From: Eubacteriales bacterium | GTDB taxonomy: Bacteria > Bacillota > Clostridia > Oscillospirales > CAG-272 | Assembly: GCA_045636385.1 (NCBI GenBank) | Contig: JAZTXK010000068.1 | Location: 3,248 to 67,247 of the forward strand | Direction: 5' to 3' | Length of the DNA stretch: 64,000 nucleotides | Shown: piece by piece, positions 10,121 through 64,000 of the stretch | How the letters are laid out: each line of letters opens with the position of its first letter | Numbering within the stretch: the first letter of the stretch is position 1 | Made by a program: the position numbers and the translations under genes | Notes under the pieces: model-generated | Told to the model about the DNA's origin: nothing | The model's input: the letters and a program-made list of their open reading frames with translations, nothing else | Database searches by the model: none

Positions 10121-10726
10121 ATGAACAATTCCGAAATCAAAAAACGCGCCAAAGAGGCGATGAAGAACAAATGGGGGCTTGCTATCGGAGTCTTTATCGT
10201 TTACGGCTTGATAAATTCTGCGATCAGCGCAACGGGTATCGGAGCTTTGGCGGCAGGATTGCTTTCCGTCGGCTTTGCTGCATTTTTCCTTGATGCTCTC
10301 AGAAGCGAAAAGGTGAGCTTTGAAAGCTTTTTCAAGGGCTTTACCGAGTACATCGGCACCAAGTTCGTTTCCATGCTCCTCGTTCAGATCTATACTATGC
10401 TCTGGACTCTTCTTTTCTACATTCCCGGCATCGTAAAGACCTATTCCTACGCTATGACTCCCTACATCCTTCTCGATAAGCCCGAGCTCAGTGCTAACGA
10501 GGCTATCACCGACAGCCGCATGATGATGCGCGGTCATAAGATGGAGCTCTTCCTTCTCGACCTCTCCTTCATCGGTTGGATTCTTCTCTCCATTCTCACC
10601 TGCGGAATTCTCTTTATCTACGTAGTTCCCTATATGCAGGCAGCTCGCGCGGAATTCTACCGCACTCTCAAGGGCGAGCATGAAGCTCCCGCACAAGAAG
10701 AGCCCGTAATCGAGATACCGCACTGA
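10121..10726 (+). CDS. DUF975-family integral membrane protein
   Basis: 201-aa ORF. Typical DUF975 start MNNSEIKKRAKEAMKNKWG and four to five TM helices. Confidence 0.8.
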   Translation: MNNSEIKKRAKEAMKNKWGLAIGVFIVYGLINSAISATGIGALAAGLLSVGFAAFFLDALRSEKVSFESFFKGFTEYIGTKFVSMLLVQIYTMLWTLLFYIPGIVKTYSYAMTPYILLDKPELSANEAITDSRMMMRGHKMELFLLDLSFIGWILLSILTCGILFIYVVPYMQAARAEFYRTLKGEHEAPAQEEPVIEIPH

Positions 10727-10730
10727 TTGA

Positions 10731-10810
10731 GTGCAGAGTGCAGAGTGCAGAGTGCAGAGTGCAGAGTGCAGAGTGCAGAGTTAAGGTAAATTTTCGCTGA
10801 CGCGAAAATT
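10731..10810 (+). repeat. heptad array (GTGCAGA)x7 plus conserved hairpin
   Basis: Seven perfect GTGCAGA units at 10731..10779, starting 4 nt after the TGA stop. Followed by GTTAAGGTAAATTTTCGC-TGAC-GCGAAAATT. Same architecture at 11055..10993 (minus) and 59469..59531. Confidence 0.9.
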
Positions 10811-10875
10811 ATTCCAATGATAATTTTGTGCTGTGCTGATAAAACCCCGCAAATCAAAAACTAAAACAAGTAAAT

Positions 10876-10926
10876 AAAAATCTCGGATATTTTGAAGCAA
10901 CAACTTCTTAATATCCGAGATTTTTT
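10876..10926. terminator. bidirectional terminator between convergent genes
   Basis: AAAAATCTCGGATAT..ATATCCGAGATTTTTT, a long hairpin flanked by A- and T-runs. Confidence 0.65.
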
Positions 10927-10992
10927 ATTTAGGTATTAAATTATCCCATTTAACAATGAAATATTAACACCGAATTAAATTATCGCAACATC

Positions 10993-11055
10993 CGATTTCC
11001 GAGCAACGCGAGGAAATCTTCCATCACTCTGCACTCTGCATTCTGCACTCTGCAT
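10993..11055 (-). repeat. heptad array (ATGCAGA/GTGCAGA)x4 plus hairpin
   Basis: Minus strand after the DAHP synthase stop reads TAA-TTGA-ATGCAGA GTGCAGA ATGCAGA GTGCAGA-GTGATGGAA-GATTTCC..GGAAATC. Confidence 0.85.
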
Positions 11056-11059
11056 TCAA

Positions 11060-12109
11060 TTACAGCTCTTCCGCCAAATCGAGTATCAGCCTCTCGGTCT
11101 TCTCCCACCCCAGGCAGGGGTCGGTGATCGACTGACCGCAGACGTAGCTTGCTTCGTCGGTGACCTTCTGTGCTCCGTCGATGAGGTAGCTTTCGATCAT
11201 AAGTCCCTTGACGAGGCGCTTGATATCCGCACTCTTGCGGCAGGAGTGGACGATGTCCTTGGCGATGCGGGGCTGTTCTGCCCACTTTTTGCCCGAGTTT
11301 GCGTGGTTGGTGTCAACGATAACGGCGGGATTTGCGAGATCGGTCTTTGAGTAGGTCTCGCAGAGATCGCGCAGGTCCTCGTAGTGGTAGTTGGGGTAGG
11401 ATTTGCCCGAGCCGTCAACGTAACCGCGGAGGATGGCGTGCGCGAGGGGATTACCGTGGCTCTCGACTTCCCATCCGCGGTAGATGAAGGTGTGGGAGTG
11501 TTGCGCGGCGGTGATAGAGTTCATCATAATTGAAATATCACCGCTTGTGGGGTTCTTCATACCGACGGGAACGTCGATACCGCTTGCCGTGAGGCGGTGC
11601 TGTTGGTTTTCAACAGAACGCGCGCCGACCGCTGTGTAGGCAAGCAGATCGGAAAGGTAACGGTAGTTATCGGGGTAGAGAAGCTCGTCTGCCGAAGCCA
11701 GACCGTAATCGCGCAGAACACGGCTGTGAAGCTCTCTCGTTGCGATGATGCCGCCAAGAACGTCAACCTCCTCGGTGGGGTTGGGCTGATGAAGCATACC
11801 CTTGTAGCCGTCGCCCGTGGTTCTCGGCTTGTTGGTGTAGATTCGGGGGATTATGATTATTTTATCTTCAACCTTTTTCTGAATATCGGCGAGCTTTTCA
11901 ACGTACTGAAGCACAGGCTCGGGGCGGTCGGCGGAGCAGGGACCGATGACGAGGATGAATTTGTCAAGCTCGCCCTTGAAGACCTTTGCGATCTCAACGT
12001 CGCGTGCTTCCTTGATTGCCTGCATTTCCTCGGTGATGGGGAACTGAGCTTTGATATCCATCGGGATGGGAAGCTTGCGCTTGAAATCCATATTTGACAT
12101 ATTACTCAT
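11060..12109 (-). CDS. aroG: 3-deoxy-7-phosphoheptulonate (DAHP) synthase, type I-alpha
   Basis: 349-aa ORF with E. coli AroG/F/H-like blocks: VIGPCS, IIPRIYTNKPRTT, GMKNPTSG, VDTNHANSGK. Confidence 0.9.
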   Translation of the reverse strand: MSNMSNMDFKRKLPIPMDIKAQFPITEEMQAIKEARDVEIAKVFKGELDKFILVIGPCSADRPEPVLQYVEKLADIQKKVEDKIIIIPRIYTNKPRTTGDGYKGMLHQPNPTEEVDVLGGIIATRELHSRVLRDYGLASADELLYPDNYRYLSDLLAYTAVGARSVENQQHRLTASGIDVPVGMKNPTSGDISIMMNSITAAQHSHTFIYRGWEVESHGNPLAHAILRGYVDGSGKSYPNYHYEDLRDLCETYSKTDLANPAVIVDTNHANSGKKWAEQPRIAKDIVHSCRKSADIKRLVKGLMIESYLIDGAQKVTDEASYVCGQSITDPCLGWEKTERLILDLAEEL

Positions 12110-34707: not shown

Positions 34708-35325
34708 ATGAAAACCGAAAATATAACAATAAACTGCCTCGGCGCGTCGAACACTCGTATTCTGATCGACAACGAGGGCATAAAGACCAAGGAAATCAAC
34801 TATCCCGTCCTGCTCGGACTTCGCTTGCGCTGTACTACACGCAATTACGGCGTAAGCGGCACGAATATCGCAAAGCAGGAGGGCAGAGAGGACAGCTACT
34901 TTGAGCGCGCACCGATGATGGAGCACGGCGCGGATATCATCATCGTCCAAGGCGGCGGCAACGACTGTAACCATTGCATTCCCCTCGGCGAGATTGATTC
35001 TACCGATCCTTATACCTATTGCGGCGCGCTTCGTTCGATTATCAGAATGATAAAGAGCGATTATCCCGAGTCGAAGCTCATCGTTTCTGATTCGATGCGT
35101 AAGAAGAAGGAGCCGCAGAAGCGCACGGATGATTTGAAGCATCTTGACTTCCATCTGGCTTTCGTTGAGGTCTGCCGAAGCGAGGGCATCGAGCCGCTGA
35201 ATTTCCACGACGACCCCGAGCTTGATCCCTTCAACCCCGAGAGCATGCCCGACGGCACGCACATGTCGGAAAAGGCGTGCAACCACATGGCGGACGTGTT
35301 TGCGGATTATATCCGAAATCTGTAA
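34708..35325 (+). CDS. SGNH/GDSL-type hydrolase
   Basis: 205 aa. Block I CLGASNT, block III VQGGGND, block V PDGTHMS. Confidence 0.8.
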   Translation: MKTENITINCLGASNTRILIDNEGIKTKEINYPVLLGLRLRCTTRNYGVSGTNIAKQEGREDSYFERAPMMEHGADIIIVQGGGNDCNHCIPLGEIDSTDPYTYCGALRSIIRMIKSDYPESKLIVSDSMRKKKEPQKRTDDLKHLDFHLAFVEVCRSEGIEPLNFHDDPELDPFNPESMPDGTHMSEKACNHMADVFADYIRNL

Positions 35326-35336
35326 AACACAAAAGA

Positions 35337-35462
35337 CGGAAAGTTTTCGTCCACCTTTTTCAAAAGGTGGCGCCGTCAAGGGCGCGTAGCCCTTGACGCC
35401 CTCCACAGAGGGCGGAATTCTCCCCTGTGCTTCAAACAGACGGCGCCCCGCCGGCTGTTTGG
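35337..35462 (+). repeat. 126-nt mosaic hairpin element (four modules)
   Basis: Starts 12 nt after the stop. Modules: CGGAAAGTTTTCGT-CCACCTTTT-TC-AAAAGGTGG, GCGTCAAGGGC..GCCCTTGACGC, CGCCCTC-CACA-GAGGGCG, CAAACAG..CTGTTTG. An inverted diverged copy lies at 36158..36282. The first module recurs at 60394..60429. Confidence 0.8.
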
Positions 35463-35466
35463 AATT

Positions 35467-35497
35467 AGTAAAAGCTCCCCGATGGGGAGCTTTTACT
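35467..35497. terminator. bidirectional hairpin terminator
   Basis: AGTAAAAGCTCCCC-GAT-GGGGAGCTTTTACT, ending 4 nt from the stop of the 35501..36025 gene. Confidence 0.6.
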
Positions 35498-35500
35498 AAT

Positions 35501-36025
35501 TTACTTCTTAAATTTCCGCACTGTAATCACAATAAGTCTAACCGCCCCGCACACAGCGAAAATATACATAAATATTCCGAGGCACAAAAAGCCGATATTG
35601 GCATAATTGAGATCATCTTGAACCTCATCAAAATCAAGAATGCTCTCACCGTTAACTTCAAGCGATAGGATGGTATCAGAGTTCGGATGAATCAGCATAT
35701 TCAGCTTCGTTCCCTTTTCAAGAGTGTCAAGATAATCGAGGATATCATAGGTAACGCAATGCGCGTCGATACTGTATATTTCACCATTGGAACAATGGAT
35801 GCTTACTGCATGCGAATCGGGGCGGATAAGTCTTTGAGTGTGGTATGAGTATTCTGTTTGAACGCATATCGCTGAATCGCGGTTGATAGGTGCCTTCAAA
35901 TATTGCTGTCCGAAGGTGAACACAGAGCCGAGTATTACTCCAACAATGAGGAATAAAATCGCCTGTTCAAGTGTCATTTTCTTTCTGAATAGTTTTTTGA
36001 ATAATTTATTTCGCTTCATTTTCAT
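35501..36025 (-). CDS. membrane protein, function unknown (lower GC)
   Basis: 174 aa. Basic N-terminus, a TM helix, a soluble domain and a C-terminal TM helix. Bracketed by the inverted mosaic repeats. Confidence 0.65.
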   Translation of the reverse strand: MKMKRNKLFKKLFRKKMTLEQAILFLIVGVILGSVFTFGQQYLKAPINRDSAICVQTEYSYHTQRLIRPDSHAVSIHCSNGEIYSIDAHCVTYDILDYLDTLEKGTKLNMLIHPNSDTILSLEVNGESILDFDEVQDDLNYANIGFLCLGIFMYIFAVCGAVRLIVITVRKFKK

Positions 36026-36084: not shown

Positions 36085-36441
36085 GTGTTGCGCGCTCTGC
36101 GGAGCGCGCGGGGTGAAGGAGCGAAATCCTCCCGCTTGCGGGAGGATTTCGCTCCTTCCAAACGGTCGGCGGGGCGCCGCCCGCTTGAAGCACGGAGGGA
36201 GTTTCGCGCTCTGCGGAGCGCGACTTAAGGCTCTGCCTTAAGAATTCGCAACCTTTTAAAAAAGGTTGACCAAAACTTCCCGCTGCTGTTGACTTTTGTT
36301 AAAATGAAAATTTTCGAGCGCAGCGAGAAAGTATTTGCCTACGGCAAATTTCGACTTTGTCTCGGCGGCTAAACACCGCCGTTTTCCTTCGGAAAAACGC
36401 CAAAGCCGTTTTCACACCTCTGCCCTCTAACCTCTGCCCTC
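36085..36441 (-). repeat. composite structured repeat region downstream of tyrS
   Basis: Contains CGCGCTC-TGCG-GAGCGCG twice (36091.., 36205..), a 20-bp-stem hairpin at 36115..36158, the inverted mosaic copy at 36158..36282, further mini-hairpins, and GAGGGCAGAGG x2 (minus strand, 36441..36417). Confidence 0.75.
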
Positions 36442-40403: not shown

Positions 40404-40449
40404 TTTTATTTCCTCCAAAGTTAAAATGTTTATAATTATAATAAATATA

Positions 40450-40602
40450 ATAAAATTCGTTTTTTTGACGGCTTTGCCGGCGAAAAAACACCTTTAAGAC
40501 GAGCTAAGCGAGTCCGCGCGCCGAGGGGAGCAGCAAAAATTGAAAATTTTTGCGTGCGGCGATAAGCGCGCGTTTCACTTGTAAAACGCAGTTTTACAAG
40601 TG
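40450..40602 (-). repeat. 153-nt mosaic hairpin element, copy 1
   Basis: Collinear with 63445..63597 and about three-quarters identical by eye. Begins (minus strand) 1 nt after the stop at 40604 with the palindrome CACTTGTAAAACTGCGTTTTACAAGTG. Later modules include GCAAAAATT-GAA-AATTTTTGC. Confidence 0.85.
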
Positions 40603-40603
40603 C

Positions 40604-41905
40604 TTACTTGAGCATATCTTCGATGGGAGTTCCATCAACACCCGGCATCTCAACGCCGAGGATCTTTGCATAAGTGGGAGCTTCGTCAACGGTGGGTCTG
40701 CGCTCGATGAGAACGCCTTCCTTGATGTCCTTACCGAAGCCGAAGAAGATGGGCTGGGGACCCTTGTCGGGATTGTGACCGTGGGTTGCCTTGCCGTAAC
40801 GGTAGTCGGAAAGGTCAAGCTGCTTTACCATCGGACGCTTCCAGTCCTCTGCGAATGAGGTGTAGCCGTCCGACTCTATAACGAAGGAGAATTCGCCCGA
40901 AAGGTGTTCCTTTTCGTTGATCTCCTCGGTGGTATAGACCTCGCTGATGCCGTAAATGCCCTCGTCGCGCATCCACTTGAGAAGGTCGTAGGTCTTCTGC
41001 CAGGTTTCCTTGTCGGTGGGATCTGCAAGTCTGATCTGCGCGGAGAGACCTGTGGAGTGGCAATATGCCTTCCAGGACTTGAGGCTTCCGTCCTCGTTCA
41101 TCTCGATAAGACCGTTGTCTGCGAAAACGACGTTCGGCTTGAGGTTACGAACGATCTCGAGCTGACCGTGGTCGGAGATGAGGAAGAAGTTGGTTTCCTC
41201 GAATGTGCCCGCGCGCTTGGTTGCCTCAATGATCTCGAAGAACCAACGCTCGGTGTCGATTACACCGCTTGTTACCTTCTCGGTGAAGAGTCCGGTGCCG
41301 TGGCGGTAGCTGTCAACGTCGCCGGTGTGAAGCATAAGGAGATGGGGCTTGTATTTTTCGATCATATCGCAGGTGACGCGGACGAGAAGCTCGTCGGTGT
41401 CGGGGTGCGTTCTGATCTTAACCTTTTCGATGTGGGGCGCGATGCACTCGCGGTAGAGCTCGGGAGTGGTTCCCGCGCGGAGGAAAGCCTCCTCCTTGGT
41501 GTCCTCGGGCGACTGAGGCCAGTACTCGGGGAAGTTGTAGTCTATGTATTCGTGACCTGCGGTAACGGGCCAGAAAACGCAAGCGGTGGTGAGTCCTGCC
41601 TTCTTTGCGGCGGTGAAGATATCGGGGCACTTGATGTTATCGGCAAACCAGGTCCAGGGAACGTTCTTGGTCACGCCGGGCATGAAGATGTTGTTATTGG
41701 TAACGCCGTGCTTGTTGGGGTAACAGCCCGTTGACATCGAGGTGTGGCAGGGGTAGGTTACCGAGGGATAGATGGTGCGGGTGCGCTTGACCATCGAACC
41801 CTTACCGAAAAGCTCCGCGAAGCGAGGGCTGGTTTTCAGAAGATATTTGATATCCTCGTAGACCATAGCATCGCAGGAGAAAACGATTACTCTGCTTTGT
41901 GACAT
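40604..41905 (-). CDS. nucleotide pyrophosphatase/phosphodiesterase (alkaline phosphatase superfamily)
   Basis: 433 aa. FSCDAM, YPSVTYPCHTSMSTGCYP (nucleophile Thr region), HTGDVDSYRHG, ISDHGQ, KATHGH. Confidence 0.85.
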   Translation of the reverse strand: MSQSRVIVFSCDAMVYEDIKYLLKTSPRFAELFGKGSMVKRTRTIYPSVTYPCHTSMSTGCYPNKHGVTNNNIFMPGVTKNVPWTWFADNIKCPDIFTAAKKAGLTTACVFWPVTAGHEYIDYNFPEYWPQSPEDTKEEAFLRAGTTPELYRECIAPHIEKVKIRTHPDTDELLVRVTCDMIEKYKPHLLMLHTGDVDSYRHGTGLFTEKVTSGVIDTERWFFEIIEATKRAGTFEETNFFLISDHGQLEIVRNLKPNVVFADNGLIEMNEDGSLKSWKAYCHSTGLSAQIRLADPTDKETWQKTYDLLKWMRDEGIYGISEVYTTEEINEKEHLSGEFSFVIESDGYTSFAEDWKRPMVKQLDLSDYRYGKATHGHNPDKGPQPIFFGFGKDIKEGVLIERRPTVDEAPTYAKILGVEMPGVDGTPIEDMLK

Positions 41906-43018: not shown

Positions 43019-43825
43019 ATGGAAAACTTCCTCAACTGGCTCATCGGCGTCGCACAGAACGTCGGCCTCAAGCTCCTCGGTGCTATCCTCGTCTGGATCA
43101 TCGGCTCCCTCATAATCAAGCTCGTTCTCAAGATCTTCCCCAACGGCAAGAAATTCGATAAGATGGATGCGACCGTTAAGTCCTTCCTCAATTCGTTCGT
43201 TTCTATCGGTCTGTGGGTGATCCTCATCGTTTGCATCGTCGCTATCCTCGGCGTTCCGATGGCGAGCGTTATCGCGGCTATCGCATCCTGCGGTGTTGCT
43301 ATCGGTCTTGCTATGCAGGGCTCGCTCTCGAACCTCGCAGGCGGCATTATGCTTCTCCTTTTCCGTCCCTTCAGCGTTGGCGAGTTCATCGAGACCTCGG
43401 GTGTTTCGGGTACCGTACACGAGATCGGCATCTTCTACACCCTCCTTATTACGGGTGACAACAAGCACGTGACCATTCCCAACGGTGCTATGATGAATAA
43501 TACCGTTATCAACTACTCCCGCGAGGATCTTCGCCGTGTTGATATGGATTTCGGCATTACTTACGAATCCGATTCCGAAAAGGCTTGCGAGATCGCAAAG
43601 CGCGTCGCTGCCGCTCACGATCTTGTTATTACCGACAAGGACGTTTTCGCGCGCGTAACCAGCCTTGGCGATTCCGCCGTTATCGTTACCGTTCGCGTTT
43701 GGGCAGAAGCGGGCAACTATTGGGGCGTTAAGTTCGACCTTACCACCGAGATCCGCAAGGCACTCGAGGCAGAGGGCGTATCCTGCGCATATCCCCATAT
43801 GGACGTTACAATTCTCAACAAATAA
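43019..43825 (+). CDS. mscS: small-conductance mechanosensitive channel (MscS family)
   Basis: 268 aa. Three TM helices, then AIGLAMQGSLSNLAGGIMLLLFRPFSVGEFIE..G.V.EI. Confidence 0.9.
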   Translation: MENFLNWLIGVAQNVGLKLLGAILVWIIGSLIIKLVLKIFPNGKKFDKMDATVKSFLNSFVSIGLWVILIVCIVAILGVPMASVIAAIASCGVAIGLAMQGSLSNLAGGIMLLLFRPFSVGEFIETSGVSGTVHEIGIFYTLLITGDNKHVTIPNGAMMNNTVINYSREDLRRVDMDFGITYESDSEKACEIAKRVAAAHDLVITDKDVFARVTSLGDSAVIVTVRVWAEAGNYWGVKFDLTTEIRKALEAEGVSCAYPHMDVTILNK

Positions 43826-43833
43826 TTCCGCCA

Positions 43834-43856
43834 ATTGTAAAACTGCGTTTTACAAT
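43834..43856 (+). repeat. palindrome ATTGTAAAACTGCGTTTTACAAT
   Basis: 9 nt after the mscS stop. Same core at 40576..40602, 50134..50154 and 63571..63597. Confidence 0.85.
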
Positions 43857-48316: not shown

Positions 48317-50128
48317 ATGGCAAACAACAAGAATATCAGAAACTTTTCGATAATTGCGCATATCGACCACGGTAAGTCTACTCTTGCAGACCGTCTGCTT
48401 GAGGAAACGGGTGCGGTTGCAAAGCGCGATATGGAGGAGCAGGTCCTTGACAATATGGACCTCGAGCGCGAGCGCGGTATCACCATCAAGGCGCGCGCCG
48501 TAAGACTTGACTATAAGGCAGACAACGGTGAGGACTATATCTTCAACCTCATCGACACCCCCGGCCACGTTGACTTTAACTATGAGGTATCCCGTTCGCT
48601 CAACGCTTGCGAGGGCGCGCTTCTCGTTGTTGACGCAACGCAGGGCATCGAGGCGCAGACTCTTGCGAACGCGTATCTCGCGGTCGATGCGGAGCTTGAG
48701 ATCGTTCCCGTTATCAATAAGATCGACCTTCCCAGCGCGGACGTTGAGCGTTGCCGCAATGAGATCGAGGATATCATCGGCATCCCCGCCGAGGATTGCC
48801 CCGCGGTTTCGGCAAAGGTAGGACTCAATATCCACGACGTGCTTGAGGCGGTCGTCCGCGACATTCCCGCGCCCGTGGGCAACGCTGATGCTCCCCTCCG
48901 CGCGCTTATTTTCGATTCATACTACGATTCCTATCTCGGAGTCGTCGTTTATATCCGTATCATCGACGGTACTCTCCGCACCGGCGATAAGATCAAGCTG
49001 ATGAGCACGGGCGCGATCTTTGAGGTCACCGCCGTCGGCTCGATGGAGGCGTTCGGTCTGAAGCCCCGCGGTGAGCTTTCTGTCGGCGAGGTTGGATATC
49101 TGACCGCTTCGATCAAGAATATTTCCGATACCCGCGTCGGTGATACAGTTACCCTTGCCGATGAGCCCGCAGAAGAGGCACTCCCCGGCTTCAAGACGGT
49201 TCAGCCGATGGTTTTCGCAGGTATTTATCCCGAGGACGGCTCTCGCTACGAGGACCTTCGCGAGGCTCTTCTCAAGCTTCAGCTCAACGACGCGGCGCTC
49301 ACCTTTGAGCCCGAAACGTCGACAGCACTCGGATTCGGCTTCCGCTGCGGCTTCCTTGGACTTCTCCACATGGAGATCATCGAGGAGCGACTTGAGCGCG
49401 AGTTCAATCTCGACCTCATCACCACCGCACCGAGCGTTATTTACGAGGTAAAGACCAAGGACGGCGAGATGCGCCGTATAGACAACCCCACCGATTATCC
49501 CCAGCCCGACGAGATCGACGTGGCGTACGAGCCGATCGTCAAGGCGAGCATTATCACGCCTCAGGAATACGTCGGTACGCTGATGGATCTCTGTCAGGAT
49601 CGCCGAGGTGTGTTCAAGGATATGAAGTACCTCGACAATATCCGCGTCGAGCTCCACTACGAGCTCCCGCTCAACGAGATCATTTATAACTTCTTCGACG
49701 CGCTCAAGTCGCGCTCGAGAGGATATGCGTCGCTCGATTACGAAATGTACGAGTACCGCGCCTCCAAGCTTTGCAGACTTGATATCCTTCTCAACGGCGA
49801 TCAGGTCGACGCGCTTTCCTTCATCGTTCACGAGGAAAAGGCTTATGCCCGTGCGCGTAAGATTGCGGAAAGACTTAAGGAAAACATCCCGCGTCAGCTC
49901 TTCGAGATCCCGATTCAGGCAGCTATCGGCGCGAGAATTATCGCGCGAGAGACTGTAAAGGCAATGCGCAAGGACGTTCTTGCGAAGTGCTACGGCGGTG
50001 ACATTACCCGTAAGAAGAAGCTGCTTGAAAAGCAGAAGGAAGGTAAAAAGAAGATGCGCAAGCTCGGCTCGGTTCAGGTTTCCCCCGAAGCCTTTATGTC
50101 GGTGCTTAAGCTTGGCGACGACAATTAA
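48317..50128 (+). CDS. lepA: translation elongation factor 4
   Basis: 603 aa. [33 protein letters not shown] and the LepA-specific C-terminus. Confidence 0.97.
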
Positions 50129-50133
50129 GCCAC

Positions 50134-50154
50134 TTGTAAAACTGCGTTTTACAA
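50134..50154 (+). repeat. palindrome TTGTAAAACTGCGTTTTACAA
   Basis: Starts 6 nt after the lepA stop and lies 44 nt upstream of hemW. Confidence 0.85.
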
Positions 50155-50197
50155 ATTTACGTTCGGCTGACAGGACAAATAACAAAGGAGAGTTTAT

Positions 50198-54202: not shown

Positions 54203-55231
54203 ATGAAAAAGATACTCACGATTATTATAGCCGCGGCGATGATCGCCGCACTTGTGATCTCTCCCGCTTGGGCGGCGGAGAATAAGTATGAATTCATGCT
54301 CGCTCTCGGCGATTCGATCACCACTGGCTACGGACTTGACGGCGAAGCGCCCTATGATTGCGAGTCCTACGCGAATATCGCTGCAGAAGCTCTCGGACTT
54401 GATGCAAAGAGCACTTACGTAAACCGCGCCGTTGACGGTGCAACGAGTAAGGATCTTCTCACCCTCCTTCCCGAGCTTGAAAACTATCTCGGATATTCCG
54501 ATCTCGTTGTCGTAACGATTGGCGGAAACGACCTTCTCGAGTCGATTTCGATCGTAGCGTCCGCCATTGCGGGCAAGAGCGTGACCGGACTTTCCGCGTC
54601 GATCGACGTTCTCACCGCGGCAAGCCCCGATAAGTTTGCGGCACTTTCAAGCAACACGAGCTTCCAGACCAAGATAGGCGCGGTCCTCGCCTCTTACGCA
54701 TCTAATCTTGCGGCGTCGGCAAAGATCATCAAGGAAAATGCTCCCACCGCGCGCGTGATCTTCCTCAAGCAGTATAATCCCCTCAAGAACGTCCCCGGCT
54801 TTGAAAGCTTCGGCGACTTCGCGGACACCCTCTTTATGAGCATCAACTCCTCGATCGACACCGTTTGCGCGGCGTACGGCTTCGAGGCTCTCGACGTTCC
54901 CTCTGTCATTGACGTAAATGCGGCAACGCTCACCAATATGCTCAACTACGATATCCACCCCAACGCTGACGGTCACAAGGCTATCGCAGGTCTTCTGACC
55001 GAGCACCTGAGCACAGTTCCCTTTACTCCCGAAACCGAGCCCGAAACCGAGCCTGAGACCGAACCCGAAACAGAGCCCGTCACCGAGCCTGTCACCGAGG
55101 CGGAGACCACTACCGCACCCGAGACCGACGGTCAGCTTGAGGCTCCCGGATGCTTTTCGTCCGTAAGCTCTGCGGCGGTTATCCTCGCGGCGGTCGGCGC
55201 GTTTACAGTACTTAAAAAGAAAGAAAATTAA
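54203..55231 (+). CDS. secreted SGNH/GDSL esterase with PETE-repeat linker and C-terminal TM anchor
   Basis: 342 aa. Signal ..ISPAWA, GDSITTGYG block I, GGNDL block III, DIHPN block V, (PETE)n linker, then AAVILAAVGAFTVLKKKEN. Confidence 0.8.
   Translation: MKKILTIIIAAAMIAALVISPAWAAENKYEFMLALGDSITTGYGLDGEAPYDCESYANIAAEALGLDAKSTYVNRAVDGATSKDLLTLLPELENYLGYSDLVVVTIGGNDLLESISIVASAIAGKSVTGLSASIDVLTAASPDKFAALSSNTSFQTKIGAVLASYASNLAASAKIIKENAPTARVIFLKQYNPLKNVPGFESFGDFADTLFMSINSSIDTVCAAYGFEALDVPSVIDVNAATLTNMLNYDIHPNADGHKAIAGLLTEHLSTVPFTPETEPETEPETEPETEPVTEPVTEAETTTAPETDGQLEAPGCFSSVSSAAVILAAVGAFTVLKKKEN
55028..55099 (+). repeat. in-frame 12-bp tandem repeat x6 (PETE/PVTE linker)
   Basis: CCCGAAACCGAG x2, CCTGAGACCGAA, CCCGAAACAGAG, CCCGTCACCGAG, CCTGTCACCGAG. 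Confidence 0.85.
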
Positions 55232-58154: not shown

Positions 58155-59468
58155 ATGATACAAAATAAACCGATAATCGAAAAAGTAATGGGGCGCGAGG
58201 TGATCGATTCGCGCGGAAATCCGACGGTCGAGGCGACGGTGCTTTGCCGCGACGGAAGCGTTGGGCGCGCAAGCGTGCCGTCGGGTGCATCGACGGGCAT
58301 CTACGAGGCGCACGAGAAGCGCGACGGAGATATGGGGCGTTACGGTGGTAAAGGCGTGAAAGATGCAGTCGAGATGATAAGGGAAGAGATCTCGCCCGCG
58401 CTTGCCGGTGTTAACGCGACCAAGCAGTTTGAGGTCGACAGAATAATGCGCGGCATCGACGGTACGGACGAGAAAAAGAGGCTCGGCGCGAACGCGATTC
58501 TTGCCGTGTCGCTTGCCACTATGCGTGCTGCGGCTTCGTCCTTCTCGCAATGCCCTTGGCAATATCTCGGCGGCGCAAAGGCAAACCGTCTGCCCGTGCC
58601 GATGTTCAACATCCTCAACGGCGGCGCACACGCGTCGAATAACGTCGATATTCAGGAATTTATGATAATGCCCGTCGGCGCACCGAGCTTTGCCGAGGCT
58701 TTGCGCGCGGGGTGCGAGATATATCATACTCTCGGCTCGATTCTCAAAAAGGAAGGACTTTCAACCGCCGTCGGTGACGAGGGCGGATACGCGCCGAACC
58801 TCGAGAGTGATACGGCGGCGCTCGATCTCATCTGCCGTGCCGTGACCGATGCGGGATACAGCCTTGACGAGGTCAAGATAGCGCTCGACGTGGCGGCAAG
58901 CGAGTGGTATTCCGAATCCGAGGGACTTTACAGATGCCCGAAGAGCGGAAAAAGCTACGACACCGAGTCGCTCATCGCGCTTTGGGAGTCGCTTTCGGCG
59001 CGTTATCCGATCTATTCGATCGAGGACGGACTCGATCAGCGCGATTTTGTAGGATGGTCAAAGATGACGGAACGCCTCGGCTCGAAGATAATGCTCGTCG
59101 GCGACGACTTTTTCGTCACAAATCCCGAAAGAGTCAAGCGCGGAATCGAAGAAGGTGCGGCAAACGCGGTGCTCGTCAAGCCGAATCAGATCGGCACACT
59201 TTCGGAAACCATCCGCGTCTGCGAAATGGCGGCGGCATCGGGATATATGACGATAATGTCCCACCGTTCGGGCGAAACCGAGGATTCGACCCTCGCCGAC
59301 CTCGCCGTCGCGCTCGCCGCACCCTTCATCAAATCCGGCGCGCCCTGCCGAAGCGAAAGACTTGCGAAATATAACCGCCTGCTCACCATCGAATCCTGCC
59401 TCGGAGCGGCGGCGAAGTACGGCACGGCGAGGGTGAAGATGAATCCTAAGGGAGCGGTGAAGGCGTGA
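58155..59468 (+). CDS. eno: enolase
   Basis: 437 aa. GREVIDSRGNPTVEA, SVPSGASTG, IEDGL, VGDDFFVTN, KPNQIGT, SHRSGETED. Confidence 0.97.
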   Translation: MIQNKPIIEKVMGREVIDSRGNPTVEATVLCRDGSVGRASVPSGASTGIYEAHEKRDGDMGRYGGKGVKDAVEMIREEISPALAGVNATKQFEVDRIMRGIDGTDEKKRLGANAILAVSLATMRAAASSFSQCPWQYLGGAKANRLPVPMFNILNGGAHASNNVDIQEFMIMPVGAPSFAEALRAGCEIYHTLGSILKKEGLSTAVGDEGGYAPNLESDTAALDLICRAVTDAGYSLDEVKIALDVAASEWYSESEGLYRCPKSGKSYDTESLIALWESLSARYPIYSIEDGLDQRDFVGWSKMTERLGSKIMLVGDDFFVTNPERVKRGIEEGAANAVLVKPNQIGTLSETIRVCEMAAASGYMTIMSHRSGETEDSTLADLAVALAAPFIKSGAPCRSERLAKYNRLLTIESCLGAAAKYGTARVKMNPKGAVKA

Positions 59469-59531
59469 GTGCAGAGTTCAGAGTTCAGAGTGCAGAGTTA
59501 AGGTAAATTTCCGTCGCTGCGCTCGGAAATT
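59469..59531 (+). repeat. heptad array (GTGCAGA GTTCAGA GTTCAGA GTGCAGA) plus conserved hairpin
   Basis: Starts on the nucleotide after the eno TGA. Followed by GTTAAGGTAAATTTCCG-TCGCTGCGCT-CGGAAATT, collinear with 10731..10810. Confidence 0.85.
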
Positions 59532-59540
59532 GAATTAATA

Positions 59541-59577
59541 AAAAATCCGAAGATTTCGAATTGAAGTCTTCGGATTT
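59541..59577. terminator. bidirectional terminator
   Basis: AAAAAATCCGAAGA..TCTTCGGATTT between the convergent eno and XRE genes. Confidence 0.65.
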
Positions 59578-60159: not shown

Positions 60160-60429
60160 AACAACCGTAAGTGGATTTTTGCTCAACTTACGGTTGTTTG
60201 GGTAAAAATGTACTGTTTTATGCTCGATAGGAGCACAAATTTAATTATCAACTGTGGGGGACATATACAATACTTCCCTACATTCCGGAAGTATTGTATA
60301 TGCCCAAAATCACGAAGCGGAGCTTCGTGATTTTGAAGCGGGATTGGCGAAGGCTGAAGCCTTCGCATTGAAATGAGGCGCCGCCTCAAACTCCGCCACC
60401 TTTTGAAAAAGGTGGACGAAAACTTTCCG
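60160..60429 (-). repeat. chain of long near-perfect hairpins ending in the shared CCACCTTTT..AAAAGGTGG module
   Basis: 13-bp stem at 60160..60198, 16-bp stem at 60262..60302, 13-bp stem at 60306..60334, GCGAAGGC-TGAA-GCCTTCGC at 60347..60366. 60394..60429 is identical to the reverse complement of 35337..35372. Lies directly downstream of pgsA. Confidence 0.75.
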
Positions 60430-60434
60430 CTTTT

Positions 60435-61061
60435 TTATTTTTCCGGATCCAAATAACTCCAATATGCCGCAAGATAATTGACGCCCGACCAGACGGTGAA
60501 GACGGTCATGAGCGCACAGAGGATAACTGTCGCGGGGGGATAGGTATTGAAAAAGTCGGGAAGGTCGGTTCCGCTTTTTTCGATGGTGGAATAGATCACG
60601 GGCTCGAGAAGAAGCACGATGATTGCGGACATCTGCGTTACCGTTTTGACCTTGCCGAGCCAGTTTGCCGCGATGACTACGCCCGAGGACGAGCTTACGA
60701 CAAGTCTGATCGAGGTCACGGCGAATTCGCGGAAGATGACCACGAGGACTGCCCAGAAGAGCCAGGTCTTCATCTGCTCGTAGCGGTAAAGGATGGCAAG
60801 CAGGCTTCCGAGAACGAGGAATTTGTCGGCAAGAGGATCCATAAACTTACCGAAATCGGTGATCAGATTATATTTCCTTGCAAGCTTGCCGTCGATCGCG
60901 TCGGTGATCGACGCGGCGGCGAAGATGACGAGAGCGATTATGGCGGTCAGGTTAGGGTCGAGCCACGTCTCGGGGATGAGGATGGCGGCGATGCAGACGG
61001 GAACCATAAACATTCGCATAACTGTCAGCTTATTCGGAAGATTCATCTTTGATTTTGCCAT
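60435..61061 (-). CDS. pgsA: CDP-diacylglycerol--glycerol-3-phosphate 3-phosphatidyltransferase
   Basis: Track ORF runs to 61073 (GTG). ATG 61061 follows GAGG. CDP-alcohol motif DAIDGKLARKYNLITDFGKFMDPLADK. Confidence 0.9.
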   Translation of the reverse strand: MAKSKMNLPNKLTVMRMFMVPVCIAAILIPETWLDPNLTAIIALVIFAAASITDAIDGKLARKYNLITDFGKFMDPLADKFLVLGSLLAILYRYEQMKTWLFWAVLVVIFREFAVTSIRLVVSSSSGVVIAANWLGKVKTVTQMSAIIVLLLEPVIYSTIEKSGTDLPDFFNTYPPATVILCALMTVFTVWSGVNYLAAYWSYLDPEK

Positions 61062-63405: not shown

Positions 63406-63444
63406 TTTTCTTTACCTCTGTTTGTTTTATCTCTGTATATTTTA

Positions 63445-63597
63445 ATAAAATCAGTTTTTTCGGGGGCTTTGCCTCCGAAAAAACACCGCTTAGGCGAGCT
63501 GTGCGAGCCCGCGCGCCGAGGGGAGGGGTCAAAATCTGCGATTTTGACGGCGGCGATAAGCGCGCGTTTTCAATTGTAAAACGTAGTTTTACAATTG
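63445..63597 (-). repeat. 153-nt mosaic hairpin element, copy 2
   Basis: Collinear with 40450..40602. The palindrome CAATTGTAAAACTACGTTTTACAATTG contains the TAA stop of the upstream aminotransferase gene. Module GTCAAAATC-TGC-GATTTTGAC replaces GCAAAAATT-GAA-AATTTTTGC of copy 1. Confidence 0.85.
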
Positions 63598-64000
63598 GGT
63601 ATTCTCGAGCATTTCTCTTGCGACCTCGCCGAGGATCACGCACCCGCGCTCGATCTGCTCGTCGGAGGGAGTGGAATAGTTGAAGCGTACCGAATTTGAA
63701 GTGCCGTTTTCATCGGGGCAGAATGCCGTGCCGGGAACGATCGCGAGCTTGTTTTTAAGGCAACGTGCAACGAATTCGGTCATGTCGATACCCTCGGGGA
63801 GAGTGCACCAGACGAAGAGTCCGCCCTCGGGACGGGTGAACTTGAAGGACTTGGGGAGATTCTCGTCGAGACCCTTCATCATGATCGCGCACTTGCGGCG
63901 GTAGATCGCGCGGATCATCTCGATGTGACCGTCAAGGTCGCGCTCGGTGACGAAGCGGTGGCAGAGCATCTGGAAGAGCTGGTTGGTGTGAACGTCCTCA
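63589..64000 (-). CDS. PLP-dependent aminotransferase (class I/II), C-terminal part; 5' end outside the window
   Basis: The reading frame stays open to the window edge. C-terminal domain pattern FTRPEGGLFVWCTLPEG..AIVPGTAF..VRFNYS. Confidence 0.8.
   Translation of the reverse strand, partial: EDVHTNQLFQMLCHRFVTERDLDGHIEMIRAIYRRKCAIMMKGLDENLPKSFKFTRPEGGLFVWCTLPEGIDMTEFVARCLKNKLAIVPGTAFCPDENGTSNSVRFNYSTPSDEQIERGCVILGEVAREMLENTQL

What the first reader, a model, noticed from the sequence alone, without database searches (positions are those of the whole stretch)
10727..11059. Convergent pair of stop-codon-abutting GTGCAGA heptad arrays, each followed by a conserved hairpin
**Seen in sequence.**
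- After the TGA of the DUF975 gene comes TTGA, then seven perfect GTGCAGA units (10731..10779), then GTTAAGGTAAATTTTCGC-TGAC-GCGAAAATT.
- On the other strand, after the TAA of DAHP synthase, comes the same TTGA linker, then ATGCAGA GTGCAGA ATGCAGA GTGCAGA (11055..11028), then a GATTTCC..GGAAATC hairpin.
- A third copy follows eno (59469..59531).
- A degenerate 14-nt-period version (GAGGGCAGAGGTTA GAGGGCAGAGGTGT, minus strand 36441..36414) follows tyrS.
- In all four cases the array has the orientation of the gene it follows. In three it starts 0-4 nt after the stop codon.
- A period of 7 is incompatible with coding.

**Established knowledge.** Ring-shaped RNA-binding regulators read NAG triplets at fixed spacing. 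HutP reads UAG with 4-nt spacers, which is a period of 7. TRAP reads (G/U)AG with 2-3-nt spacers.

**Inference.** These arrays present GAG and CAG every 7 nt on the mRNA 3' end. They may be a binding platform for an oligomeric RNA-binding protein, or a 3'-end stability or processing element. I do not recognise them as a described repeat family.
Basis: partly seen in the sequence, partly recalled or inferred. Interest (0 to 1): 0.65.

Follow-up and report, generated by a model that had tools for sequence, protein, structure and literature searches.

The report
Heptad-repeat foldback abutting two stop codons
The two mirror-image runs of a 7-base unit are the arms of one 333-base hairpin-forming repeat that fills the gap between two genes' stop codons; it is a new sequence family within a widespread, already reported but still unexplained class of bacterial 7-base repeats, not a HutP/TRAP-type protein switch.

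Summary
Three RTKCAGA arrays start 0-4 nt after stop codons, in the sense orientation. Each is followed by a degenerate unit (RTKAWGG) and a small hairpin.

The "convergent pair" is one foldback element (10727-11059). Its arms can pair into a ~37-bp stem around a bidirectional terminator.

The same architecture recurs in many phyla and in phages:
- Unit number peaks sharply at 4.
- Inverted partners face each other (59 cases) and almost never lie back-to-back (1 case).
- Long sense ORFs end within 8 nt of the array about five times more often than antisense ORFs do.

Two other heptad motifs obey the same rules, and hundreds of different heptads co-occur. A universal motif reader is therefore unlikely.

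Related genomes show that arrays change by whole units, that the element is gained and lost at genus scale, and that near-identical cores sit at two sites in one genome.

Rehm et al. 2015 reported the same positional rules for GGGAATC and GGGGAYT heptamers, so this is a new member of a known but unexplained kind.

Best reading: a transcribed 3'-UTR or intercistronic hairpin module that acts like REP elements. The HutP/TRAP analogy fails its defining features. The function is inferred, not shown.

The parts
10724..10730 (+). TGA stop codon of the DUF975 gene (10121-10726) plus the TTGA linker. The linker's GA completes the first GAGTGCA register.
10731..10779 (+). Left arm: 7 perfect GTGCAGA units. 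The family norm is 4. The orthologous locus L233 has 4 units, so this arm has gained 3 units (21 nt).
10780..10788 (+). Degenerate terminal unit GTTAAGG plus TA (family consensus RTKAWGG+WA).
10789..10810 (+). Arm hairpin AATTTTCGC-TGAC-GCGAAAATT: 9-bp stem, -9.2 kcal/mol.
10876..10925 (.). Central bidirectional intrinsic terminator: AAAAATCTCGGATATT...AATATCCGAGATTTTT, with A- and T-tracts on both strands.
   Evidence: read from the sequence; the simple scan missed it because its loop exceeds 8 nt
10994..11018 (-). Right-arm hairpin GATTTCCTCG-CGTTG-CTCGGAAATC (-9.0 kcal/mol).
11019..11027 (-). Degenerate terminal unit GTGATGG plus AA of the right arm.
11028..11055 (-). Right arm: ATGCAGA GTGCAGA ATGCAGA GTGCAGA (4 units). 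It is complementary to the left arm (94% over 36 nt).
11056..11062 (-). TTGA linker and TAA stop codon of the DAHP synthase gene (11060-12109, minus strand).
59466..59531 (+). One-armed copy after eno: TGA stop, 4 units (59469-59496), GTTAAGG+TA, then the hairpin AATTTCCG...CGGAAATT (59506-59531). In the minimum-free-energy fold, array units also pair with the 3' half of this hairpin.
59544..59577 (+). Intrinsic terminator of eno, downstream of the arm. It is conserved in the 94%-identical relative L241.
36414..36441 (-). Diverged 4-unit variant GAGGGCA GAGGTTA GAGGGCA GAGGTGT followed by a hairpin. It lies after the tyrS terminator, not at the stop codon. Membership in the family is probable, not shown.

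Best explanation
**What it is (shown)**
- The two arrays are the inward-reading arms of a single 333-bp foldback repeat. It occupies the whole spacer between the stop codons of two convergent genes.
- Each arm consists of TTGA, then (R-T-K-C-A-G-A)n, then one degenerate unit (RTKAWGG), then a short A/T-rich hairpin.
- The centre carries the bidirectional intrinsic terminator.
- The copy after eno is a one-armed version.
- The element belongs to the bacterial heptameric simple-sequence repeats. That class shows stop-codon abutment on the coding strand, a modal 4 units, and facing inverted pairs.

**How it behaves as DNA (shown)**
- Arrays change by whole-unit slippage and by A/G toggling at unit position 1, while the core stays conserved.
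- The module is gained, lost and duplicated as a unit at genus scale.

**How it most likely works (inferred)**
- It is transcribed as the 3' UTR.
- The purine-rich sense arm is the spacer that leads from the stop codon into a hairpin.
- In RNA that reads through from either side, the arms pair into a duplex of at least 28 bp that closes the intergenic region.
- The module would then act as a 3'-end or intercistronic hairpin: a barrier to 3' exonucleases, a possible RNase III substrate, and a back-up terminator or insulator between convergent genes.
- REP/BIME elements, Correia elements and phage intercistronic hairpins act in this way.
- Why the period is 7 and the number of units is 4 is not explained.
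For: **The window pair is one foldback**
- RNA of 10715-11070 folds with the two arrays in a ~37-bp stem enclosing the terminator. MFE is -142.7 kcal/mol and z = -15.4.
- Inverted-repeat hits I4/I5 show 86-94% complementarity between the arms.

**Architecture in other genomes**
- Facing partners outnumber back-to-back partners: 23 vs 4 of 97 arrays, and 12 vs 0 of 28. Pooled, the counts are 59 vs 1.
- Unit number peaks at 4. Counts are 3:22, 4:70, 5:19 in one set. In the set seeded with only 2 units they are 3:14, 4:74, 5:6.
- A hairpin follows the terminal unit. 55% of arms fold at or below -8 kcal/mol against 17% of shuffles. Stems differ in sequence, and many carry T-runs.
- Sense ORFs end within -1..+8 nt of 50 of 205 arrays, against 7 of 205 for antisense ORFs.

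**RNA and copy number**
- Metatranscriptome contigs pile up on the array plus GTTAAGGTAAATTTCCG, at depth 483-1589.
- Metagenome contigs pile up on both arms.

**Evolution**
- The orthologue L233 has a 97.6% identical 245-nt core. Its arrays differ by A/G toggles and a 21-nt indel.
- The eno 3' end runs from 4 units, to 3 units with a different hairpin stem, to a 1-unit remnant, to none.
- One intergenic site is empty (8-10 nt) in some relatives and filled (195 or 340 nt) in others.
- Two copies in L244 share a near-identical ~75-nt core.

**Use inside operons**
- A tailed-phage structural module carries 4+4-unit foldbacks after the major head gene and between later genes.

**Literature**
- Rehm et al. 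2015 found the same positional rules for GGGAATC and GGGGAYT heptamers.
Against: - There are no direct 3'-end, half-life or nuclease data for this organism. The RNA evidence is multi-mapping contig depth only.
- With an efficient central terminator, most transcripts would contain only one arm, so the long stem would form only in read-through RNA.
- Arms need not be complementary. In L243 the left arm uses GGRTCAG units and the right arm GTGCAGA.
- Paired units are no more alike than adjacent units within one arm: 0.81/0.75 against 0.84/0.77. There is therefore no stem-specific covariation.
- A plain hairpin role does not explain four things:
  - the near-invariance of 5 of the 7 positions;
  - the sharp 4-unit mode in solo arms;
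  - the strict polarity, with the purine-rich arm always 5';
  - the period of 7.
Confidence: 0.5

Rival explanations
1. Single-stranded RNA platform for an oligomeric or multi-domain RNA-binding protein. This is the first reader's idea in generalised form: four heptads bind four subunits or domains at the mRNA 3' end, and so set stability, processing or termination. Candidates are CSD/S1-type or KH-type domains such as those of NusA.
For: - 5 of the 7 unit positions are about 98% invariant, and the other two toggle between only two bases.
- The mode at 4 units is sharp, also in solo arms.
- Arrays lie in the sense orientation at stop codons.
- Arms need not pair with each other.
- The arrays are transcribed.
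- E. coli NusA binds spacers containing AUU (PMC2724277). This is a lead only.
Against: - No candidate protein was identified.
- HutP and TRAP site definitions are not met.
- Other heptads (RTKACGA, RGTCAGA) follow the same rules.
- 321 distinct heptads co-occur, with only a mild shared GAAT/GAGT core: 76 observed against 48.5 expected.
- In phages and many genomes the arrays form near-perfect duplex stems.
- One foldback sits in frame inside MetH.
Confidence: 0.2
2. Miniature inverted-repeat transposable element (MITE). The heptad arrays are terminal inverted repeats bound by a transposase. Stop-codon abutment reflects target choice (TA/TGA) plus survival only where insertion is harmless.
For: - The strict facing polarity is what terminal inverted repeats give by definition.
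- The size is 80-340 bp.
- Two copies in one genome share a near-identical unique core.
- Presence and absence vary at orthologous sites.
- TA flanks both ends in L009 and L012.
- One copy is inserted in frame in MetH.
- Copy number in metagenomes is high.
Against: - No consistent target-site duplication is seen in L003, L027, L039, L045 or L244.
- No transposase was found next to any copy, and the inverted-repeat-flanked ORF in the window is not one.
- The position is retained between relatives about 90% identical in DNA.
- The same unit motif occurs in very distant phyla, which is not expected for one transposase.
- Many copies are solo arms.
Confidence: 0.15
3. Neutral by-product of replication slippage and template switching at terminator hairpins, with no function. 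Heptamers prevail for polymerase or mismatch-repair reasons, as Mrazek et al. 2007 proposed (cited in PMC4679880 and PMC4692102).
For: - Period 7 dominates all tandem repeats in 6.3 Mb of loci, with 1919 of 2678 rows and hundreds of motifs.
- Indels come in whole units.
- Elements are gained and lost at genus scale.
Against: - Neutral slippage predicts a monotonic length distribution, not a sharp peak at 4 units.
- It predicts no sense/antisense bias at stop codons and no polarity of inverted pairs.
- AT-rich arrays persist in phage genomes of 62% GC.
Confidence: 0.1
4. Double-stranded DNA binding sites that act as orientation-dependent roadblocks at gene ends. The analogy is to the stoperators of mycobacteriophage L5 (recalled from my own knowledge, not tested).
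For: - Sites are orientation-specific at stop codons.
- They recur after many genes in phage contigs.
- The unit core is invariant.
Against: - No binding protein is known.
- Motifs are diverse.
- The arrays occur in unrelated phyla and in core chromosomal loci.
- A period of 7 bp places successive sites on different faces of the helix.
Confidence: 0.05

Closest known systems
Heptameric simple-sequence repeats GGGAATC (Xanthomonas) and GGGGA(C/T)T (Nostoc); Rehm et al. 2015, PLoS One, PMC4692102
   Same: - Tandem 7-nt units that are mostly intergenic.
- Located within 0-50 nt of the stop codon, or overlapping it, on the coding strand.
[quoted passage not shown]
- Tandemly inverted pairs.
- The same intergenic positions in related species, with variation in length and sequence.
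- Transcribed.
- Function unresolved.
   Different: - The unit sequence differs. It has no G-tracts, so the G-quadruplex explanation for 4 units cannot apply here.
- This family has a defined degenerate terminal unit plus an adjoining hairpin.
- It occurs in Clostridia, Acidobacteriota, Bacteroidota, the PVC group, Chloroflexota, Cyanobacteria and phages.
TAACTGA heptamer direct repeats of Beggiatoaceae, Cyanobacteria and Bacteroidetes (MacGregor 2015, PMC4679880), and cyanobacterial STRR heptamers (Mazel 1990; own knowledge, cited indirectly in PMC4692102)
   Same: - Short intergenic arrays with a 7-nt period.
- Scattered phyletic distribution.
- Indels in 7-nt steps between strains.
- Mixed with other heptamers.
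- Function unknown.
   Different: - TAACTGA arrays lie mostly just upstream of start codons and contain stop codons.
- The arrays here lie just after stop codons and are open in all sense frames.
REP/BIME elements of enterobacteria
   Same: - Extragenic palindromic repeats in 3' UTRs, often within about 15 nt of stop codons.
- Often in inverted pairs.
- Transcribed.
- They stabilise upstream mRNA and can affect translation termination (own knowledge: Newbury 1987; Liang 2015).
   Different: - REPs are about 35-bp imperfect palindromes with a GTAG head, mobilised by RAYT transposases.
- They have no 7-nt periodicity.
- Neither a GTAG head nor a RAYT gene was seen here.
Correia/NEMIS MITEs of Neisseria and the RNase III sites between phage T7 genes
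   Same: Long inverted-repeat hairpins in mRNAs between genes that serve as RNase III substrates, 3' stabilisers or terminators (own knowledge).
   Different: - Correia elements have 26-bp non-repetitive terminal inverted repeats and TA duplications.
- T7 sites are unique hairpins.
- Neither is built from tandem heptads.
HutP and TRAP RNA binding sites
   Same: Short purine-containing triplets repeated at fixed spacing on single-stranded RNA. HutP spacing gives a period of 7.
   Different: - HutP reads UAG triplets (two sets of three) in a 5' leader terminator/antiterminator.
- TRAP reads 9-11 (G/U)AG triplets with 2-3-nt spacers.
- Here the periodic triplet is CAG, there are 4 units, the site is a 3' UTR, and the arrays form inverted pairs.

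Membership tests
Bacterial heptameric SSRs (LSSR class; Mrazek 2007, Rehm 2015) | Tandem head-to-tail 7-nt units, 3 or more copies, beyond chance | tested here: met
   TRF finds 7.6, 4.3 and 4.7 copies at 88-100% match. There are 12 pattern matches against 0.05 expected.
Bacterial heptameric SSRs (LSSR class; Mrazek 2007, Rehm 2015) | [quoted passage not shown] | tested here: met
   In the window the arrays start 4, 4 and 0 nt after the stop. Family-wide, sense ORFs abut 50 of 205 arrays and antisense ORFs 7 of 205.
Bacterial heptameric SSRs (LSSR class; Mrazek 2007, Rehm 2015) | Preference for 4 units and occurrence as inverted pairs | tested here: met
   The mode is 4. Facing pairs number 59 against 1 back-to-back. 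The window arms have 7, 4 and 4 units.
Bacterial heptameric SSRs (LSSR class; Mrazek 2007, Rehm 2015) | Same intergenic position in related strains, with length and sequence variation | tested here: met
   Window versus L233 shows a 21-nt indel and A/G toggles with a 97.6% identical core.
HutP binding site | Two clusters of three UAG triplets spaced by 4 nt, in a 5' leader overlapping a terminator | tested here: not met
   No UAG is present in any unit. The periodic triplet is CAG, the arrays are single runs, and they lie in 3' UTRs.
TRAP binding site | 9-11 (G/U)AG triplets separated by 2-3 nt | tested here: not met
   The period is 7 (4-nt spacers) and the modal number of units is 4.
MITE | Terminal inverted repeats, small size, many dispersed copies | tested here: met
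   Arms face each other. Size is 80-340 bp. Contig pile-ups show high copy number. L244 has duplicated cores.
MITE | Target-site duplication flanking each copy | tested here: inconclusive
   TA flanks L009 and L012, but there is no consistent duplication in L003, L027, L039, L045 or the L244 copies. The outer edges of arrays are degenerate.
MITE | A cognate autonomous element or transposase with the same ends | tested here: inconclusive
   None was seen in the window or in the loci read, and ORF 35501-36025 is not a transposase. Whole genomes could not be searched.
REP/BIME (RAYT-associated) | About 35-bp imperfect palindrome with a conserved 5' GTAG, and a RAYT gene in the genome | tested here: not met
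   No GTAG head is present and the units are tandem, not palindromic. The presence of a RAYT gene was not testable, because only 64 kb is in hand.
Intrinsic (Rho-independent) terminator | G+C-rich stem-loop followed by a U-tract | tested here: inconclusive
   The central hairpin 10876-10925 and 59544-59577 fit. The arm hairpins have 3 G-C pairs and no clean U-tract. Many family members do carry T-runs. No termination data exist.
Any Rfam family | Covariance-model match | tested here: not met
   No match covers the arrays or arm hairpins, even at E up to 10.

The most novel reading that the evidence does not exclude
Three rules may define a pan-bacterial 3'-end module: "four units of seven", placed at the stop codon, read in the sense direction, and leading into a hairpin. 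The rules hold for at least three unrelated heptad motifs here and for the G-rich heptamers of Xanthomonas and Nostoc. On this reading, the geometry of the module (28 nt, period 7), rather than its sequence, is read by a conserved machine. Candidates are the terminating ribosome, RNA polymerase with NusA, or a four-domain/tetrameric OB- or KH-fold protein. That machine would couple translation termination to transcript 3'-end formation or decay.
Probability: 0.15. Interest if true: 0.85.

Novelty: new member of a known kind. Interest (0 to 1): 0.5.

Why it matters
Heptameric repeats are the dominant tandem repeats of many bacterial genomes. Their bias toward stop codons and toward four units has been noted since 2007-2015 without explanation.

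This family adds three points:
1. It has no G-tracts, so it removes the G-quadruplex rationale for "four units".
2. It shows the same rules across distant phyla and in phage operons.
3. It offers a compact, easily engineered test object: stop codon, 4 heptads, terminal unit, hairpin.

If the module sets mRNA 3' ends or stability, it would be a general and portable cis-element. It would also be a source of strain-level expression variation through unit slippage.

If it is selfish or neutral, it is a marker of a heptad-specific mutational process that is still not understood.

In practice, these arrays break short-read assemblies and can mislead gene-end annotation.

Tried and rejected
- **Exact-protein look-up of the DAHP synthase.** Not on record. 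I used enolase homologues instead.
- **Literal sequence search of the paper library.** Only irrelevant hits.
- **Mrazek 2007 (PNAS).** Not held, so it is cited only through PMC4679880 and PMC4692102.
- **My first period-7 detector.** Too permissive. I replaced it with TRF.
- **Greedy ORF calling.** It mis-called even the DUF975 gene. I replaced it with tests for stop codons that end long open frames.
- **Inverted-repeat-flanked ORF 35501-36025 as a candidate RAYT/IS200 transposase.** No such domain.
- **A shared GAAT/GAGT core as a super-consensus.**
  - The shuffled-motif test gave only 1.6-fold enrichment, so I dropped the idea as a defining feature.
- **NusA KH-domain site resemblance.**
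  - It reduces to a shared AUU. I keep it as a lead only.
  - The M. tuberculosis RNA sequence I recalled could not be verified.
- **Other ideas considered from my own knowledge and not pursued.** These were RNase E (RN|WUU), CsrA (GGA), Shine-Dalgarno-like, Rho rut, Chi, attC, DNA uptake sequences and the T7 class II terminator (ATCTGTT). Each fits only low-information parts of the unit or fails on phyletic distribution.
- **Stem covariation between arms.** No signal beyond unit homogeneity.
- **Unit-number peak for non-seed heptads.** Perfect-run lengths could not test it, because heterogeneous units split the arrays.
Full report
**1.

The window carries three arrays of the unit RTKCAGA.
- 10731-10779 (+) has seven perfect GTGCAGA units.
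- 11055-11028 (-) reads ATGCAGA GTGCAGA ATGCAGA GTGCAGA.
- 59469-59496 (+) reads GTGCAGA GTTCAGA GTTCAGA GTGCAGA.

A three-unit pattern with up to 3 mismatches matches 12 times, against 0.05 in dinucleotide shuffles.

The arrays begin 4, 4 and 0 nt after the stop codons of genes that I confirmed as DUF975, DAHP synthase and enolase. Each array has its gene's orientation.

Each array is followed by one degenerate unit (GTTAAGG, GTGATGG, GTTAAGG), then two bases, then a 9-bp A/T-rich hairpin. In this window that hairpin type occurs nowhere else.

The canonical intrinsic terminators lie further downstream, at 10876-10925 (bidirectional) and 59544-59577.

The tyrS-linked variant (36441-36414) also has four units followed by a hairpin. 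It lies beyond the tyrS terminator, so it is a looser case.

Rfam has nothing on these sequences, even at E up to 10.

**2. The "convergent pair" is one element**

Folded as RNA, 10715-11070 pairs the two arrays into a ~37-bp stem. The stem closes the entire intergenic region around the central terminator (MFE -142.7 kcal/mol, z = -15.4).

The element therefore spans exactly from one stop codon to the other, 10727-11059.

The arms read RTKCAGA inward on both strands. Any gene that ends next to the element therefore necessarily sees a sense array.

**3. The same thing elsewhere**

Hits came from Acidobacteriota, Bacteroidota, Planctomycetota, Verrucomicrobiota, Cyanobacteria, Chloroflexota, Patescibacteria and Clostridia. 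A uniform-random model would give about 17 hits.

A metagenome scan for two units plus the terminal unit also saturated. It returned two orthologues of the window locus, L142 and L233.

Gut metagenome and metatranscriptome contigs pile up 20- to 100-fold on the arrays plus arm module, relative to the flanks. The module is therefore multi-copy and present in RNA. Contig depth cannot show where transcripts end.

Across the loci fetched:
- The logo is A-[R T K C A G A]x4-[R T K A W G G]-A-A. Five unit positions are about 98% fixed, and positions 1 and 3 toggle between two bases.
- Unit number peaks sharply at four. Counts are 3:22, 4:70, 5:19. In the set seeded with only two units they are 3:14, 4:74, 5:6.
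- Inverted partners face each other far more often than they lie back-to-back: 23 vs 4 and 12 vs 0. Pooled, the counts are 59 vs 1.
- A sense ORF of at least 100 codons ends within -1..+8 nt of 50 of 205 arrays. For antisense ORFs the count is 7 of 205. In an earlier test the rate at random positions was about 2%.
- A hairpin usually starts 0-3 nt after the terminal unit. Stem sequences differ between copies, and many hairpins are followed by T-runs.

**4. Evolutionary behaviour**

Against the orthologue L233:
- The 245-nt core is 97.6% identical.
- The arrays differ by A/G toggles at unit position 1 and by a 21-nt indel, giving 7 units against 4.
- The seven-unit arm is therefore a recent three-unit expansion from the usual four.

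At the eno 3' end:
- The window has 4 units.
- A relative with 94% enolase identity has 3 units, a different hairpin stem and the same terminator.
- A relative at 86% keeps a one-unit remnant.
- Relatives at 78% and 76% have none, but carry arrays at other sites.

One of those other sites lies between the MiaB-like and CDP-alcohol phosphatidyltransferase genes. It is 8-10 nt long in the window lineage. In L243 and L244 it is 195 and 340 nt long and holds a complete foldback.

L244 has two complete foldbacks 2.5 kb apart. They share a near-identical ~75-nt unique core but have different arrays and flanks. This requires duplication or mobility of the whole module.

In L243 the two arms use different heptads. 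Paired units are no more alike than neighbouring units within an arm. Arm-to-arm pairing is therefore not strictly maintained.

In a Prevotella MAG, a 4+4-unit foldback lies in frame in the MetH linker between the homocysteine-methyltransferase and pterin-binding domains.

**5. Phages and controls**

IMG/VR holds 69 stretches with the pattern.

One contig, L283, is a genuine tailed-phage structural module: portal, protease, major head, adaptor, neck and tail chaperone. It carries compact 4+4-unit foldbacks with 16-nt loops right after the major head gene and between later genes, in a 63% GC genome. There the element sits inside an operon, so it cannot be an efficient terminator. It behaves like an intercistronic hairpin.

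Control motifs scanned in the same collection gave these counts:

| Motif (x3) | Stretches |
|---|---|
| AGACKTR (reversed unit) | 5 |

The other families obey the same rules:

| Family | Units 3 : 4 : 5 | Facing vs back-to-back | Sense vs antisense stop |
|---|---|---|---|
| RTKACGA | 40 : 66 : 11 | 14 vs 3 | 30 vs 6 |
| RGTCAGA | 25 : 38 : 14 | 11 vs 0 | 10 vs 5 |

Over 6.3 Mb of fetched loci, period 7 accounts for 1919 of 2678 TRF rows (periods up to 10). There are 321 distinct non-seed heptads, and a shared GAAT/GAGT core is only mildly enriched.

The invariants are therefore period, number, position and polarity, not the motif.

**6. Comparison with what is known**

- Rehm et al. 2015 (PMC4692102) described GGGAATC and GGGGAYT heptamers in Xanthomonas and Nostoc. 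These are intergenic, lie within 0-50 nt of the stop codon or overlap it on the coding strand, prefer four units, occur as inverted pairs, keep their position between species with varying length, and are transcribed. Their function is unresolved. The authors explained "four" by G-quadruplex formation, which cannot apply to RTKCAGA.
- MacGregor 2015 (PMC4679880) described TAACTGA heptamers upstream of start codons. That paper summarises Mrazek's 2007 finding that heptanucleotides are the commonest long SSRs.
- No paper in the held library contains the present sequences.
- The finding is thus a new sequence family of a known, unexplained kind.
- HutP and TRAP site definitions are not met: there is no UAG, the spacing or number is wrong, and the site is a 3' UTR.

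**7. Most likely mechanism**

*Shown:* a transcribed, multi-copy foldback module placed at stop codons, which evolves by unit slippage and by gain and loss of the whole module.

*Inferred, with about 0.5 confidence in the overall reading:* it works as a 3'-UTR or intercistronic hairpin module.
- The purine-rich sense arm leads from the stop codon into a hairpin.
- In read-through RNA from either direction the arms form a duplex of at least 28 bp.
- That duplex could block 3' exonucleases, be cut by RNase III, or insulate convergent genes, as REP/BIME elements, Correia elements and T7 intercistronic hairpins do.

*Unexplained:* the period of 7, the mode of 4, the polarity and the fixed unit core. 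These keep three rivals alive: a protein-platform reading (about 0.2), a MITE reading (about 0.15), and neutral slippage (about 0.1). Neutral slippage is disfavoured by the peaked length distribution and the strand bias.

**8. Verdict**

- Novelty: a new member of a known kind.
- Interest is moderate at 0.5. The family sharpens an old open question by showing that the "4 x 7 at the stop codon" rule does not depend on the motif or on G-quadruplexes.

Noticed in passing
L009 2378-2460 (Prevotella sp. MAG, JAZRXS010000182.1): A 4+4-unit heptad foldback lies in frame inside a 1213-aa MetH gene. It encodes about 27 residues of the linker between the S-methyl_trans and Pterin_bind domains. A 7-nt repeat reads as the same 7-aa repeat in all three frames.
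   Followed up: yes
L283 3735-10011 and L296 (IMG/VR contigs 3300024433_000075 and 3300009529_001865): Phage contigs of about 62% GC carry AT-rich 4+4-unit heptad foldbacks after the major head gene and in most later intergenic gaps of the structural operon.
   Followed up: partly
L267 1218-13977 (IMG/VR 3300029305_011774): Arrays that abut TAA stops are followed by one of two conserved ~40-nt sequences (atgatttttgaattgtgacgcaggtgcgtt..., atggcccctgtcatttcgagtaagtgcgcagc...). Each of these recurs several times, and one lies within a ~200-nt tandem repeat.
   Followed up: no
window 40573-40602, 43824-43856, 50123-50157, 63563-63598: There are four copies of a 21-30-nt palindrome, TTGTAAAAC-NNN-GTTTTACAA. 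At least one lies just beyond the 3' end of an ORF (40604-41905, minus strand). This is either another gene-end hairpin family or a LacI-type operator.
   Followed up: partly
window 40448-40540 and 63443-63535: A 93-nt direct repeat (81% identity) contains a TTTTTTCG...CGAAAAAA hairpin. Each copy lies about 30 nt before one of the TTGTAAAAC palindromes. There is no Rfam match (SraB scores 26 bits against a threshold of 130).
   Followed up: partly
window 35318-35372 and 60394-60448: A 55-nt sequence with a terminator-like hairpin (CGCCACCTTTTGAAAAAGGTGGCG) occurs twice, 25 kb apart, in inverted orientation (87% complementary). Both copies are in intergenic DNA.
   Followed up: no
window 35422-35481 and 36139-36198, flanking ORF 35501-36025 (-): 60-nt inverted repeats (77% complementary) flank a 174-aa ORF with no significant Pfam domain. 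The adjacent region 36200-36410 is packed with small hairpins.
   Followed up: partly
window 59475-59536: In the eno copy, the minimum-free-energy fold pairs array units (GAGUGCAG) with CUGCGCUC in the loop and 3' half of the arm hairpin. This is an alternative to the small hairpin. The conserved loop motif TCGC..GCTCG of the Clostridial hairpins may be a decayed antisense heptad.
   Followed up: no
L199, L146 and other Ga0123356 contigs: Contigs from one metagenome carry higher-order repeats in which ATTCAGA arrays, the punctuation ATGAAGGA, and arrays of a second heptad (CAGCGCA) alternate. Further heptads (GTACGAA, CCCTATG, GCAACCT, CACCAAC) lie nearby.
   Followed up: no
window 55028-55129: A 12-nt/36-nt tandem repeat (CCCGAAACCGAG) has a period that is a multiple of three. 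It looks like a coding Pro/Glu/Thr-rich linker.
   Followed up: no
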